54,160 nt of DNA from a virus. Lineage: Duplodnaviria; Caudoviricetes. The translations under genes and the position numbers were made by a program. Position 1 is the first letter of the stretch; the number at the start of each line of letters is the position of its first letter. The stretch lies in IMG/VR virus record IMGVR_UViG_3300032323_000448, positions 1 to 54,160 of that record; one strand, 5' to 3'. Shown piece after piece: positions 25,030-27,910 of this stretch. The notes under the pieces are model-generated. The model ran no database searches and was not told the DNA's origin. It worked only from the letters and a program-made list of their open reading frames with translations.

Positions 25030-25307
25030 TCACGGCTGGGGACTGGTGGGCATTCCTGTATGGGCGGGCCAGTGGTATGTACCCGCTTGGACTTCCCTGA
25101 CTAGCCAATCCCCATGCGTAATAGTCCCCGTCTCTCCGGGGCGTCACGTCGTTCTATGGGCTACTGGCTCCAGACGTTCTCGTGCCGCAATTACTCACAA
25201 CCCACTTGGGCCAGACCCCGTGTACCGGCTGGACGGCAACCGCCTCAAGGGCGATTGGGGAATCTCAACAACAGTGTCGTCACGCTGGGGAATATAGCTC
25301 ACCAGCA
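25030..25307 (-). ncRNA. Putative structured RNA elements (two adjacent motifs)
   Basis: No convincing ORF; TGGGGATTGG/CCAGTCCCCA stem, CCCCG-GAGAGA-CGGGG hairpin. Confidence 0.45.
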
Positions 25308-25622
25308 TCAAAAGATCAAAGACTCTTTAACCTGCGGTTCAAGCATCTCTTGCATGGCAGCTTGAGCCGCGGCCTCCGTGTGTTCGCAGTCCTCCCAAGG
25401 CAAAACATCGCAGGCGCAACTTGGGCGGTAGGACCCCGTGATCTTGGGCTTCCTTGGCTTCATGTCCTGAGCCATCCTGCCCAGCAGGGGAATCCACTTT
25501 GAGAAGGGCGTCAGGTCTTCGACCCCCTGGATGTACCAGACCTTGCGGTCAGCATCCCACTTGGCGCCTAGCGCCTTGGCCTCATCCTTCTCAGCGTAGG
25601 GACAGTTCAGGTTGATCCTCAT
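25308..25622 (-). CDS. DUF5710-domain protein
   Basis: LNCPYAEKDEAKALGAKWDADRKVWY; C-terminal C.C....DCEH. Confidence 0.75.
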   Translation of the reverse strand: MRINLNCPYAEKDEAKALGAKWDADRKVWYIQGVEDLTPFSKWIPLLGRMAQDMKPRKPKITGSYRPSCACDVLPWEDCEHTEAAAQAAMQEMLEPQVKESLIF

Positions 25623-25653
25623 AGCCTTCCAATTGATTAGCAGATTCAGGAAA

Positions 25654-26008
25654 CTGTGGCAAAGGAATGCCTACCCGACCAAAGCCAGGAGGCACACCTT
25701 CCAACCGATCCCTTCATCGAGGTTCCCAGTGGACCAGCCCGTAGCAATGCCGGCTGGCTTGCCGAGCTTTCCCCCCATTGCGGGGTCTGCTGGGACTCGG
25801 CAACCTCGCTGGCTGGTCAGCCGGACTTGAACCGACTGGGCCATCAAGGCGTGTATGCCCCCACTGCGCCTGCATCTTCTGTGCGCTCTCGCCCCAGGTC
25901 AGAACGTTGTAGGCCCGGTGGACTGCGCCCTACGCCTTGCGGCTTCCTGCGCTTCCCTCATGCCGGCCCATAACCCGATAGACCCCTAGAGCAAGGTCGC
26001 GGCCACAA
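25654..26008 (-). ncRNA. Putative ~350-nt structured non-coding RNA
   Basis: Seven nested long-range helices, GCAA loops, T-loop-like GGTTCAAGTCC; no minus-strand ORF spans it. Confidence 0.55.
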
Positions 26009-26011
26009 AGC

Positions 26012-26160
26012 AAAAAACCCATTGGTGAACGAGCTTTGGGCTTGGTTGCCGCATACCCGTAGTGCCATACCACGTACAAGTAGCTTTGACGAAGCCCGCT
26101 CACCAATGGGTTCGCGGATGTCGCTGTAATGGAGCTACGACGGGTTACCAAGCCGTCGAT
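26012..26160 (-). ncRNA. C4-like antisense RNA/attenuator with leader target sites
   Basis: ~22-bp stem AACCCATTGGTGAGCGGGCTTC/AAAGCTCGTTCACCAATGGGTT followed by a T-run; internal segments complementary to the leader. Confidence 0.55.
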
Positions 26161-26167
26161 GAGCTGC

Positions 26168-26195
26168 ATTGTACAGAAGTCCCAGGGCGTGTCAA
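26168..26195 (-). promoter_or_regulatory. Sigma70-like promoter
   Basis: TTGACA-N16-TACAAT on the minus strand. Confidence 0.65.
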
Positions 26196-26207
26196 GGAGT
26201 GACAAAA

Positions 26208-26477
26208 CTAGTTTTGGTCAATTTTCTTGAGATCGACCAGCTTCTCACGGTTGACCAGCTCAAACCCGTGCTGTAGCAAATAGTTATCAATGACGTTGGT
26301 GCGGTCAACAGACCAGATGAACCGGGGCTTGATGTGCCAACGGAAGCGAAAGCGCCAGCCATGCACCTCGTGCAGCGATGGCGTGTACCACATCCACGAA
26401 GCGACAAACCCACCGGGGGCGCGGTACAGGTTCAGGCCGATCTTCTTAAAGTGGCCTTCTTTGGTGAAGTGAATCAT
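26208..26477 (-). CDS. Hypothetical protein
   Basis: 89 aa with AAGGAG RBS after terL. Confidence 0.6.
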   Translation of the reverse strand: MIHFTKEGHFKKIGLNLYRAPGGFVASWMWYTPSLHEVHGWRFRFRWHIKPRFIWSVDRTNVIDNYLLQHGFELVNREKLVDLKKIDQN

Positions 26478-26488
26478 CCGTCTTCTCC

Positions 26489-27910
26489 TTAAACAGCGTA
26501 GGGGTTCTCGCGCTTCTTGCCGCCAGCGTCGATCACATCGTCCTCGTCGTAGTCGTCCGGGGCTGGGCCGTCAATGTCGATGAAGCCAGCATCCCGCAGG
26601 AACCGCAGGGCCTGGGTGGTCACATCCACGAAGTCATCGTGGGTCGTGTCAGGGAAGGCGCATAACTGCGAGACCAGGGGCTCGGCCCAGTCCCGCACAT
26701 ACCCAGGCCTCTGGCTGGACTCGGGAATCCAGACCCTGCCCCTGGCGAACAGGGAGGACACGATGTTCAGGCGCTGCATCTTGTCGGCCTTGCCTGGGTT
26801 GTAGGCCCGCACAGGCATATGCGCCCTCTGAAGGTCTTGGATCAGCGAGATGCCCGCGGACTTGTCCTCGATCAGGATCAGGTCCACCCGCTTTCTGTCC
26901 CGGCCCTCCCCGTAGACCACCTCGTACTCGTCTTGAACCTTGGGGCGCAGGTCAGGATACTGGAGGCGGTCCTGCCAGCAGTCCAGCAGCATGACGGACA
27001 TCGGCCCGTCCATGGGCTTGAAGACGCCCCAAGTACCCGCCGCGGTGGGGTCGTTGATGGTCTTCTCGCTCGTGGCGCAGTCGTAGGACTGGAGGATGTA
27101 CTCGAACTTGGGGAACGGCTTGTCCACCGGCCAGAGTTTGAGCATGTCCCGCTTGACGATGCCAGCCTCCTCCGGGTCGATGATCTCAGCGTAGATCTCC
27201 TGCCTCCCGAGCTTCGTCCCCTCGTACTGCAAGATCTGCTTTTGAAAGCTCGGCGCAAGGTTGGCAAGGTTGGCGTAGGTCGAGGCCGTCGTCAGGTGGA
27301 CATCGTCGCCCTCCCGCCCCACCAGATCCACGATGAGGTCTTTCGGTTTAGGCGTGGTGGTGCAGAGGATGCGGGTACGCTTACCTAGGCGAACGCCGAA
27401 CATGATCTGGTCCCAGGCGTCTTGCAGGTAGTCCCAGGCGGCCAGCTCGTCGCACCAAGCCCCGTGGAACTGCGGCCCCCGAAAGCGCTCAGGCTCCGAT
27501 GCCGGGATGCCTTTGATCAGGCTGCCGTTGATCAGCTTGAGCTCATGGTAGGCCTTGTTGTAGTCCTCGATCAGGGTCTGGGGGATGATGTTGATCAGCC
27601 CTGAGTCACCCTCAAAGCAGGTGGCCCGGACGTCAGCAGAGGTAGGAGCGGCGACGAGCCAGCGGGTGCCGGGCTCCTTCCAGGCCCACCAGCCTACCTG
27701 CTCGGCAGCGGTTCGGGTCTTACCGGCGCCGCGGCCAGCAAGAAGCAGCCAGATCGTCCACCAGTCGCCGGAGGGCAGGATCTGGTGGTCGTGGGCTGTG
27801 GCAAGCCACTTGGAGCGCCACTCGAAGGCGGCACGCTCCGCAGCAGGAAGCAGGGCGTACTGGCGGCGGGTCTTTTCATCGCGCAGCAGCTCAACCAGCG
27901 GGTCGCTCAT
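26489..27910 (-). CDS. terL: Terminase large subunit
   Basis: Walker A AGRGAGKT, Walker B WCDE, TTTPKP, nuclease SYD...IEDKSAG...HDDFVD. Confidence 0.95.
   Translation of the reverse strand: MSDPLVELLRDEKTRRQYALLPAAERAAFEWRSKWLATAHDHQILPSGDWWTIWLLLAGRGAGKTRTAAEQVGWWAWKEPGTRWLVAAPTSADVRATCFEGDSGLINIIPQTLIEDYNKAYHELKLINGSLIKGIPASEPERFRGPQFHGAWCDELAAWDYLQDAWDQIMFGVRLGKRTRILCTTTPKPKDLIVDLVGREGDDVHLTTASTYANLANLAPSFQKQILQYEGTKLGRQEIYAEIIDPEEAGIVKRDMLKLWPVDKPFPKFEYILQSYDCATSEKTINDPTAAGTWGVFKPMDGPMSVMLLDCWQDRLQYPDLRPKVQDEYEVVYGEGRDRKRVDLILIEDKSAGISLIQDLQRAHMPVRAYNPGKADKMQRLNIVSSLFARGRVWIPESSQRPGYVRDWAEPLVSQLCAFPDTTHDDFVDVTTQALRFLRDAGFIDIDGPAPDDYDEDDVIDAGGKKRENPYAV

What the first reader, a model, noticed from the sequence alone, without database searches (positions are those of the whole stretch)
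25654..26008. Candidate ~350-nt multi-helix non-coding RNA in a gene-dense phage
Seen: no credible ORF, but perfectly nested complementary pairs (plus coordinates): 25655-60/26002-07, 25669-74/25909-14, 25675-80/25897-902, 25688-700/25846-62, 25725-30/25835-40, 25732-39/25811-18, 25762-66/25796-800. Mismatches resolve as G-U pairs on the minus strand. It also has a GCC-GCAA-GGC tetraloop hairpin (25934-43), a second GCAA-type loop (25773-85) and a tRNA-like T-loop CGG-UUCAAGU-CCG (25822-34). Known: GNRA and T-loops mark RNAs with tertiary folds, and large phage ncRNAs such as GOLLD and ROOL exist. Inference: a large structured RNA of a class I do not recognise, read through from the C4-like element upstream.
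Basis: partly seen in the sequence, partly recalled or inferred. Interest (0 to 1): 0.8.

Follow-up and report, generated by a model that had tools for sequence, protein, structure and literature searches.

The report
New pseudoknotted leader RNA in phages
The roughly 385 bases after this phage's packaging genes encode a conserved, intricately folded non-coding RNA of a family absent from the RNA family catalogue, found in dozens of freshwater phages in front of varying genes; its function is still unknown.

Summary
The finding is real, but its proposed fold is mostly wrong. Window 26010-25627 (minus strand) is one copy of a conserved non-coding RNA family: 61 distinct members in IMG/VR and 1 true hit among 41 pattern matches in 185,579 species genomes. 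A curated structure of 80 pairs in 14 helices, with one pseudoknot, is 91.6% paired against 35-43% when partners are slid. 64 of 80 pairs show compensatory changes. Only its local hairpins (GNRA, T-loop, two others) hold. No conserved ORF exists and there is no Rfam 15 match. The RNA follows a consensus promoter plus a covarying small-RNA/terminator unit. It ends 11-25 nt before the start codon of a variable gene: DUF5710 here, HNH in 14 of 61 relatives, others elsewhere. Best reading is a cis-acting leader, reached by read-through, that gates the downstream gene (about 0.45). Rivals are a stand-alone RNA or a ribozyme. An internal direct repeat (S1/S2) is unexplained. The scan had noted look-alike ORF-free segments before HNH genes on other DNA (e1-6273445, e1-6261307).

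The parts
26168..26195 (-). Sigma-70-type promoter, TTGACA-16-TACAAT (11 of 12 consensus positions). It drives the unit.
   Evidence: TTGACA/TATAAT-like hexamers sit at the same place in relatives.
26012..26165 (-). It has a 5' hairpin, a hypervariable segment pairing with an inner hairpin loop (pseudoknot), and a long closing stem followed by a U-run.
   Evidence: Its 18-mer core occurs in 75 viral stretches, giving 67 distinct sequences. On 52 sequences, 41 pairs are predicted and 19 show compensatory changes. The pseudoknot is 81.9% paired against 24-40% when slid. No Rfam match.
25627..26010 (-). The structured RNA itself (called 'A-type' here); the only copy in the window.
   Evidence: A profile built from the 61-sequence alignment hits here with E 3.9e-62, and nowhere else in the window. 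Covariation.
25889..25994 (-). Domain 1: a long bulged hairpin. It contains P1 (25994-25984 / 25898-25889), the invariant core strands UCUAUCGGG (25982-25974) and ACGUUCU (25907-25901), P3 (25969-25963 / 25918-25912, with one G-G mismatch in the window copy), P4 (25957-25949 / 25928-25920) and the GCC-GCAA-GGC hairpin (25943-25934).
   Evidence: Helices 1-5 are 84-99% paired. All 8 pairs of P1 and all 7 pairs of P3 show compensatory changes. Window coordinates were read from the sequence.
25866..25886 (-). Domain 2 hairpin, GCGC/GCGC, with the invariant loop motif AGAAG (25880-25876).
   Evidence: Helix 6 is 99.6% paired. AGAAG is invariant in 15 sequences that were not selected on it.
25792..25862 (-). 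Pseudoknot helix (25862-25859 with 25795-25792). It spans the T-loop arm (25849-25804), whose tip is the hairpin CAGUCGG-UUCAAGU-CCGGCUG (25838-25818).
   Evidence: Helix 7 (99.2% paired, 4 of 4 pairs compensatory), helix 8 and helix 9. These are among the top mutual-information pairs.
25733..25803 (-). Helix UUGCCGAG/CUCGGCAA (25803-25796 / 25766-25759). It encloses the pseudoknot 3' strand, the hairpin CCCC-GCAAU-GGGG (25785-25773) and the conserved strand GGAAAG (25772-25767). The hairpin CCAGCC/GGCUGG follows (25757-25752 / 25739-25734).
   Evidence: Helices 10, 11 and 12 are 97%, 100% and 92% paired, and every pair shows compensatory changes. The window row is shifted by one column in the alignment at two of these helices.
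25697..25709 (-). S1: first copy of the internal direct repeat (AUCGGUUGGAAGG).
   Evidence: Family-wide parallel variation.
25625..25637 (-). S2: second copy of the repeat (AUCAAUUGGAAGG). It holds the Shine-Dalgarno-like GGAAGG, 3 nt before the ATG of the next gene.
25308..25622 (-). Downstream 'cargo' gene: a 104-aa DUF5710 protein. It is absent from the closest relatives that keep the RNA.
   Evidence: PF18974, E 1.6e-20. L002/L055 lack the gene. The same kind of gene follows the RNA in L172, L174, L182, L205 and L211, judged by reading their N-termini.

Best explanation
Window 26010-25627 (minus strand) encodes a member of an uncatalogued family of about 385-nt pseudoknotted non-coding RNAs from freshwater phages, probably phages of Betaproteobacteria. 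A near-consensus promoter (26195-26168) first makes a roughly 150-nt structured small RNA that ends in a long-stem terminator. RNA polymerase that reads through the terminator then transcribes this RNA and runs straight into the next gene. I propose that the RNA acts in cis as a sensing or gating leader. Its conserved core comprises the invariant strands UCUAUCGGG, ACGUUCU, AGAAG and GGAAAG, a pseudoknot, a T-loop arm and GNRA loops. This core would adopt a defined tertiary fold, and the fold's state would set how much of the downstream cassette is expressed, through the 3' end (S2), which carries that gene's ribosome-binding region. SHOWN: the conserved structure, the strand, the lack of coding potential, the position after a promoter/terminator unit, and the position directly before a start codon. 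INFERRED: read-through, action in cis, and any sensing. The signal is unknown.
For: Structure: 80 pairs are 91.6% paired against 34.8-42.8% for slid partners. 64 of 80 pairs show double changes. The covariation score is 0.491 against 0.186 for shuffles, and 0 of 500 shuffles reach it. An independent first set of 15 sequences gave 36 of 66 predicted pairs with compensatory changes. Non-coding. Strand: G-U pairs. Promoter-proximal position: every one of the 61 members I inspected has an upstream promoter-like and/or U-run terminator module within about 250 nt. These modules fall into at least 3 unrelated sequence classes, so the link is architectural and not hitch-hiking (by eye). No terminator of its own: in 53 of 60 members an ORF of at least 50 aa starts within 120 nt of the S2 anchor (median 18 nt), and about 27 have an ATG 11-25 nt after it, with a purine-rich S2 as the Shine-Dalgarno region. 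The 3' platform varies while the core is kept, as in riboswitch classes (comparison recalled): about 10 members instead have a small hairpin plus U-run after S2 (by eye). One phage contig carries two copies on opposite strands (L166). Phage-restricted: 1 true hit of 41 pattern matches in species genomes.
Against: The downstream genes are heterogeneous: HNH in 14 of 61, DUF5710, a roughly 70-aa zinc-ribbon-like protein, ParB-like, weak terS-like and portal-like hits, and unknowns. This is unusual for a cis-regulator and fits a stand-alone RNA equally well. In a compact one-strand phage genome, any intergenic RNA will sit just before an ORF. About 10 members are followed by a new TTGACA promoter instead of an ORF. 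My explicit switch models, in which S1 or S2 pairs with a common partner, gave no signal above controls. No expression data could be had. A sister RNA in the same genomic niche (Betaproteobacteria-1) is filed in Rfam as an sRNA gene.
Confidence: 0.45

Rival explanations
1. It is a stand-alone structural non-coding RNA acting in trans, an orphan large RNA in the manner of ROOL, GOLLD or Betaproteobacteria-1. It would be made or processed out of the read-through transcript, and its position before an ORF would be incidental.
For: The downstream genes are heterogeneous. About 10 members are followed by a hairpin plus U-run and a fresh promoter. In related phages the same niche after the same small-RNA module holds RF02932 Betaproteobacteria-1, at 101 bits, and at least three other ORF-free sequence types. 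tRNA genes lie just upstream in L175, L194 and L208; phage large RNAs are often near tRNAs (recalled).
Against: Most members have no terminator of their own. The conserved 3' end overlaps the ribosome-binding region of the next gene. No RNA data are available.
Confidence: 0.27
2. It is a ribozyme that processes the transcript. For example, it could free or cap the downstream mRNA, as the GIR1 lariat-capping ribozyme does in front of a homing-endonuclease gene, or it could be a degenerate group-I-like element.
For: The RNA has a large conserved core with invariant unpaired strands. The order of elements is: pseudoknot 5' strand, arm, helix 5' strand, pseudoknot 3' strand, hairpin, purine-rich strand, helix 3' strand, hairpin. 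This is the same order as P3, P4-P6, P7, P3', P8, J8/7, P7', P9 of group I introns (recalled, a lead only). An HNH endonuclease gene follows in 14 of 61 members (PF01844, E 3e-12 for L097).
Against: There is no match to Intron_gpI, GIR1 or any ribozyme model even at E up to 10. There is no separate P6-like hairpin. There are no flanking exons: the RNA follows a promoter and terminator, not a split gene. HNH is absent from most members and from this phage.
Confidence: 0.12
3. It is a DNA-level element, such as a single-strand origin, a recombination or cassette-exchange site, or a protein operator, with the helices forming in single-stranded DNA.
For: The downstream gene is exchanged between close relatives exactly at the 3' end of the element. 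An internal direct repeat flanks a hairpin. Replication genes (ParB-like, helicase, primase-like) are neighbours in many loci; these names come from reading their sequences.
Against: The many conserved G-U pairs are strand-specific and match the transcribed strand. GNRA and T-loop motifs are RNA tertiary motifs. The repeat occurs nowhere else in the 54-kb genome, so it is not a genome-wide operator.
Confidence: 0.05
4. It is not a functional element: either a chance fold in GC-rich spacer or a missed protein-coding gene.
For: Single-sequence folding is only modestly better than shuffles (z -2.40).
Against: Covariation in 61 sequences, and no conserved reading frame.
Confidence: 0.02

Closest known systems
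Betaproteobacteria-1 RNA motif (Rfam RF02932; function unknown)
   Same: It occupies the same genomic niche. In L092 it starts right after the U-run of the same small-RNA/terminator module (1598-1481 on the minus strand; the module's core 18-mer is at 1701-1684). It is phage-borne, ORF-free, and followed by variable small genes.
   Different: It is about 120 nt against about 385 nt. There is no sequence or model similarity: the window and 16 further members give no RF02932 hit. It lacks the invariant motifs of this family.
P1/P7 C4 and P4 CI antisense RNA systems (Rfam C4, c4-a1b1); relevant to the upstream unit only
   Same: A strong promoter drives a small structured RNA whose hypervariable loop pairs with a hypervariable upstream segment, placed ahead of accessory genes. 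The similarity of mechanism is recalled knowledge.
   Different: There is no Rfam C4 hit even at E up to 10. No antirepressor gene lies downstream. The RNA studied here is a separate, much larger element downstream of that unit.
HEARO / IscB omega-RNA
   Same: A structured RNA of a few hundred nt lies directly upstream of an ORF with an HNH domain (14 of 61 members).
   Different: The HNH proteins here are 112-187 aa and match only PF01844, with no RuvC domain. Most members, and this phage, have no HNH gene at all. There is no RF02033 hit.
GOLLD and ROOL large phage-associated RNAs
   Same: They are large, ornate, phage-borne RNAs of unknown function, sometimes next to tRNA genes (tRNAs upstream in L175, L194 and L208).
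   Different: This RNA is smaller and gives no model match. Unlike those RNAs (recalled), it is fixed directly downstream of a promoter/terminator unit and directly upstream of a start codon.
Group I introns and the GIR1 lariat-capping ribozyme
   Same: The order of helices around the pseudoknot is the same (recalled comparison), and an HNH endonuclease gene follows in part of the family.
   Different: There are no exons, no P1/IGS, no P6 and no model match. Catalysis has not been tested.
Riboswitch and T-box leaders
   Same: A conserved sensor-like core is joined to a variable 3' platform that overlaps a ribosome-binding site or a small terminator. A T-loop motif is present.
   Different: It is far larger than metabolite aptamers. 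The genes it precedes have no common function. No ligand is known and no alternative pairing could be demonstrated.

Membership tests
Any Rfam 15 family (4227 models; includes C4, c4-a1b1, HEARO, GOLLD, ROOL, Intron_gpI, GIR1, RNase P, tmRNA, riboswitches) | Match to the family covariance model at or above its gathering score | tested here: not met
   There are 0 hits in the whole window. At E up to 10 on 25200-26500 only two chance-level hits appear (14.7 bits against a cutoff of 100, and 10.1 against 196). One chance-level hit appears on member L104 2440-3060. In 19 loci, 16 of them carrying this RNA, only tRNAs and one RF02932 were found, none overlapping this RNA.
Betaproteobacteria-1 (RF02932) | Model match; RNA of about 120 nt | tested here: not met
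   The model hits L092 (101.2 bits), but not the window or 16 other members.
HEARO / IscB omega-RNA | Adjacent IscB-type ORF (RuvC plus HNH, about 400-500 aa) | tested here: not met
   The next ORF in the window is a 104-aa DUF5710 protein. HNH neighbours in relatives are 112-187 aa and match PF01844 only. tblastn finds no HNH of that cluster in the window (best E 0.11).
Group I intron | Interrupts a gene (flanking exons), with P1 pairing at the 5' splice site | tested here: not met
   The RNA is preceded by a promoter, a small RNA and a U-run terminator, and followed by a complete ORF with its own start codon. No reading frame continues across it.
Group I intron | Self-splicing or G-dependent catalysis | not testable with these tools
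   This needs in vitro transcription and splicing assays.
tRNA / tmRNA / tRNA-like gene | Cloverleaf or tmRNA architecture detected by ARAGORN | tested here: not met
   ARAGORN finds 0 genes in the window. Only an isolated T-loop-type hairpin is present (helix 9).
Cis-regulatory leader (riboswitch-like) | Mutually exclusive pairings linking the sensor to the ribosome-binding site or a terminator | tested here: inconclusive
   S2 overlaps the ribosome-binding region in about 27 members. However, duplex-energy tests found no partner better than controls.
Cis-regulatory leader (riboswitch-like) | Functionally coherent downstream genes | tested here: not met
   The downstream genes include HNH, DUF5710, zinc-ribbon-like, ParB-like, terS-like, portal-like and unknown proteins.

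The most novel reading that the evidence does not exclude
This is a new class of large catalytic or macromolecule-sensing RNA. Its pseudoknotted core has a group-I-like helix order, and it would process, cap or gate the mRNA of exchangeable phage gene cassettes. The unexplained S1/S2 repeat, which varies between phages but stays identical within each RNA, would provide two equivalent recognition or reaction sites, for example for a self-processing step or for one trans-acting partner.
Probability: 0.15. Interest if true: 0.9.

Novelty: new variant of a known kind. Interest (0 to 1): 0.7.

Why it matters
Bacterial and phage RNAs above about 300 nt with a conserved tertiary-type fold and no known function are few (OLE, GOLLD, ROOL, HEARO, raiA; recalled). 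Each has led to new biology or new RNA architecture. This family has strong covariation support, a pseudoknot, a T-loop, GNRA loops and four invariant single-stranded motifs. It also has a fixed place in a three-part unit (promoter, covarying small RNA with terminator, large RNA) that precedes whatever gene sits downstream. That layout makes it directly testable with reporter fusions and in vitro assays. It also points to a modular control system for accessory or 'cargo' genes in a large group of uncultured freshwater phages. The alignment and structure here are enough to build a covariance model and to design SHAPE, cryo-EM or ribozyme tests.

Tried and rejected
KNOWN FAMILY. Rfam gave nothing. 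ARAGORN found no tRNA or tmRNA. blastn against GenBank phages found no match.

PROTEIN-CODING. The two largest ORFs in the stretch have no Pfam or PHROG family, and no frame is conserved.

These are rejected.

HNH PARTNER IN THIS PHAGE. None was found.

HOMOLOGY WITH SIMILAR-LOOKING TYPES. The 'A2' and 'A3' types, which share UCUAUCGGG-like motifs and often precede HNH genes, are not detected by the sequence profile at E 1e-5. I therefore did not count them as members.

SPECIES GENOMES. 40 of 41 pattern matches were chance.

S1/S2 REPEAT. I tested several pairing partners: the segment after UAGGCAG, pairing of S1 with S2, the upstream small RNA, domains 1-3 and the S2 anchor (-4.0 against -3.45 kcal/mol for shuffles). 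None beat the controls. The anchor is nearly invariant, so the test has little power. A 6-mer complement scan found a G-U-tolerant partner at the invariant ACGUUCU in 15 of 39 sequences, but all are from one sequence class, so this is not covariation. A genome-wide operator is rejected because only these two copies exist in 54 kb.

LEADER PEPTIDE. A leader peptide starting in S1 was considered by eye and dropped as inconsistent.

EXPRESSION. No RNA holder is listed, and read laying was not used.

LITERATURE. One search listed 2 of 3 papers (GOLLD/ROOL cryo-EM, and retrons); I saw the listing only. One search found 0 papers. One search found 3 unrelated papers (listing only). One search listed 13 of 14 papers. 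Of these I read passages of PMC10690425. It reports 8,495 candidate structured RNAs from IMG/VR and names none upstream of HNH or DUF5710 in its main text. I found no paper that describes this family in these four searches.

COVARIANCE MODEL. I did not build one, because the RNA exceeds the size the tool calibrates in time. All alignments are MAFFT alignments, and the window row is shifted by one column at two helices.

ASCERTAINMENT. 46 of the 61 sequences were found with a pattern that requires UCUAUCGGG, ACGUUCU and AGAAG, so the invariance of those motifs is partly by construction. They are also invariant in the 15 sequences found independently through the upstream small RNA.

ROWS DROPPED. 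L163 and L170 were chance matches. For one search I gave 52 of the 61 distinct small-RNA sequences. I left out L101, L111, L117, L129, L133, L140, L147, L155 and L159 to shorten the call; all are near-duplicates of rows I kept.
Full report
CONTEXT. The window is a whole IMG/VR virus record of 54,160 bp, estimated 96% complete, with essentially all long ORFs on the minus strand. Around the finding, reading along the minus strand, the order is as follows:
- terS at 28503-27907 (PF20901, E 6.8e-28) and terL at 27910-26489 (PF03237, E 3.7e-22);
- an 89-aa ORF with no family, at 26477-26208;
- a 585-nt gap;
- a 104-aa DUF5710 gene at 25622-25308 (E 1.6e-20);
- a second gap, a small ORF, and then 748-aa and 1285-aa proteins.
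GenBank phages hold nothing similar at the DNA level.

OBSERVATION. The minus strand folds somewhat better than shuffles: -163.7 kcal/mol, z -2.40, with 0 of 100 shuffles as good. The plus strand gives z -1.46. Single-sequence folding cannot decide the matter, so I collected homologues.

HOMOLOGUES.
- Of 316 viral stretches encoding terL relatives, the best 80 were kept. In only 8 of these did the DNA downstream of terL resemble the window. L002/L055 match 26225-25626 at 94%. L004/L005 match as far as 25865 and then diverge. Four others share only 26195-26006.
- The alignment showed a consensus promoter and a conserved small RNA ending in a long stem plus U-run at 26195-26012. It also showed that the diverged part of L004/L005 keeps pairing through compensatory changes.
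- A core 18-mer of the small RNA occurs in 75 viral stretches, 67 of them distinct. Behind its U-run lie several unrelated ORF-free sequence types. The window's type was found in 15 of the 67.
- A gapped pattern of three motifs that were invariant in those 15 found 69 viral stretches. These gave 63 distinct sequences, of which 61 are true members and 2 are chance.
- The same pattern in 185,579 species genomes gave 41 stretches. Only one is a true member: L230, a 7.9-kb contig of a Nitrosomonadales MAG.
- A sequence profile of the family hits the window once, at 26010-25627, with E 3.9e-62.

STRUCTURE. RNAalifold on the first 15 sequences predicted 66 pairs, 36 of them with compensatory changes. 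On the 61-sequence alignment, mutual information with APC correction and a helix scan singled out seven strongly covarying helices, one of which crosses another and so forms a pseudoknot. I combined these with RNAalifold and per-sequence folds of the 3' domain into a structure of 80 pairs in 14 helices. The counts on this structure are:
- 91.6% of cells are paired, against 34.8-42.8% when the 3' partners are slid by 1-3 columns;
- 64 of 80 pairs have changes on both sides;
- 814 compensatory cells are seen, against 245 in shuffles;
- the covariation score is 0.491, against 0.186 for shuffles, and none of 500 shuffles reaches any of the five measures.
The structure was partly derived from this alignment, which favours it over the slid versions, but the margin is large. 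Helices 3, 7, 10, 11 and 12 vary at every pair. The many conserved G-U pairs fix the sense strand as the window's minus strand.

ANATOMY IN THE WINDOW. Coordinates were read from the sequence.
- Domain 1 is a long hairpin (25994-25889). It carries the invariant strands UCUAUCGGG and ACGUUCU and a GNRA tip.
- Domain 2 is a hairpin (25886-25866) with an invariant AGAAG loop.
- The pseudoknot pairs 25862-25859 with 25795-25792.
- The T-loop arm spans 25849-25804.
- An 8-bp helix (25803-25796 / 25766-25759) encloses a hairpin and the strand GGAAAG. A further hairpin lies at 25757-25734.
- A more variable 3' domain ends at 25627.

Its six long-range helices are not conserved. Its GNRA hairpin, T-loop hairpin, CCCC/GGGG hairpin and CCGAG/CUCGG helix are conserved. 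The last two score low only because the window row is shifted by one column there.

NOT CODING, NOT CATALOGUED. Stops are evenly spread over the three frames (271/284/285 in 61 sequences), and spacers vary by 1-2 nt. Rfam 15 has no match in the window, in a canonical member, or in 16 further members. That last search did identify one of the other sequence types behind the same small RNA as RF02932 Betaproteobacteria-1 (L092, 101 bits). This niche therefore already holds one described RNA of unknown function.

UPSTREAM UNIT. The promoter TTGACA-16-TACAAT matches 11 of 12 consensus positions. The small RNA has 41 predicted pairs on 52 sequences, 19 of them with compensatory changes. A six-pair pseudoknot joins a hypervariable 5' segment to the loop of an inner hairpin; it is 81.9% paired against 24-40% when slid, with a covariation score of 0.772. 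Members of the large-RNA family are preceded by at least three unrelated classes of such promoter/small-RNA/terminator modules (by eye). The association is therefore with the architecture, not with one sequence.

DOWNSTREAM.
- The conserved RNA ends in an anchor: (U/C)CACC in most members, CUAAUC in the window.
- In 53 of 60 members an ORF of at least 50 aa starts within 120 nt of the anchor (median 18 nt). About 27 have an ATG at 11-25 nt.
- The gene varies. It is an HNH endonuclease in 14 of 61 members (PF01844, E 3e-12 for L097). It is DUF5710 in the window and, by reading the N-termini, in L172, L174, L182, L205 and L211. Other members carry a roughly 70-aa cysteine-rich protein, ParB-like proteins, a weak terS-like hit, a weak portal-like hit, or unknown proteins.
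- The closest relatives L002/L055 keep the RNA at 94% identity but lack the DUF5710 gene. The window encodes no HNH of that cluster.
- About 10 members have a small hairpin plus U-run and a new TTGACA promoter instead of an adjacent ORF.

UNEXPLAINED FEATURE. Inside the 3' domain, two segments about 72-80 nt apart carry the same 6-13 nt. S1 follows GGCUCC and S2 follows the anchor. The shared stretch differs between phages. In the window they are AUCGGUUGGAAGG (25709-25697) and AUCAAUUGGAAGG (25637-25625), and these are the only two matches in 54 kb. S2 contains the Shine-Dalgarno-like sequence of the next gene. I could not find a common pairing partner. The repeat is absent from the other sequence types.

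INTERPRETATION. That this is a conserved structured RNA I hold at about 0.95. Its mode of action is open.
- I favour a cis-acting leader reached by read-through of the upstream terminator (0.45). It is always promoter-proximal, it has no terminator of its own in most members, its 3' end overlaps the next gene's ribosome-binding region, and its 3' platform varies while the core is fixed.
- The heterogeneity of the downstream genes, the members followed by a new promoter, and the sRNA status of the sister motif keep a stand-alone RNA close behind (0.27).
- A ribozyme (0.12) is suggested by the invariant core and by a helix order like that of group I introns (recalled, untested). There is no model match, no exon context and no P6 equivalent.
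- DNA-level and artefact readings are unlikely.

EARLIER NOTES OF THIS SCAN. Note e1-6299131 (the promoter plus C4-like unit) agrees. Notes e1-6273445 and e1-6261307 describe ORF-free segments of about 400-470 nt before HNH genes in other genomes, sharing 3 and 2 of 178 short words with this RNA. I did not examine those genomes. The GGCG-GGTTAG-CGCC hairpin named in the second note also occurs between terminator and RNA in loci such as L171.

NOVELTY AND SCORE. The family is absent from Rfam 15, and my four literature searches found no description of it. A catalogue of 8,495 candidate structured RNAs from IMG/VR exists (PMC10690425; passages read). Its closed supplements might list fragments of this RNA. 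I rate it a new family within a known kind (phage structured leaders and orphan large RNAs), with interest 0.7. It is well supported, large, architecturally rich and directly testable, but its function is unknown.

Noticed in passing
window 26195-26012 (minus strand); loci L087-L160: The upstream promoter plus roughly 150-nt small RNA plus terminator is itself a widespread, uncatalogued RNA family. Its core 18-mer occurs in 75 viral stretches, 67 of them distinct. It has a hypervariable, covarying pseudoknot (81.9% paired against 24-40% when slid). There is no Rfam hit, even to C4.
   Followed up: partly
L092-L160, the 400-550 nt after the small RNA's U-run: Behind the same small-RNA module, other phages carry at least four other ORF-free sequence types (my labels B, C, D, E), each recurring in 3-13 loci. 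D is Rfam Betaproteobacteria-1 (L092 1598-1481). B, C and E are unassigned and were not tested for structure.
   Followed up: partly
window 25622-25019 compared with L002/L055: The DUF5710 gene and the roughly 290 nt after it (25307-25019) are present in the window but replaced by about 55 nt in the closest relatives. This looks like a cassette-type gain or loss exactly at the 3' end of the RNA.
   Followed up: partly
window 26477-26208 compared with L002-L005: The segment between terL and the promoter (the 89-aa ORF here) is unrelated in each of the close relatives, although terL is 98-99% identical. This is a second hot spot of replacement.
   Followed up: no
L171, L176, L178, L181, L191, L195-L197, L203, L206, L210 (upstream of the RNA): An extra hairpin element of about 110 nt (GAGACUGGGA...UCCCAGUCUC, enclosing GGCG-GGUUAG-CGCC) sits between the terminator and the large RNA in this subgroup.
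   Followed up: no
L166 9830-10216 (+) and 1725-1339 (-): One 16.8-kb viral contig carries two copies of the RNA with identical profile scores on opposite strands.
   Followed up: no
L175 2624-3042, L208 3891-4058, L194 1955-2346: tRNA genes lie immediately upstream of the promoter/small-RNA/large-RNA unit in several phages.
   Followed up: no
L124, just after its small-RNA U-run: Here the small-RNA module is followed directly by an ORF start with no large RNA in between, so the module can also stand alone before a gene.
   Followed up: no
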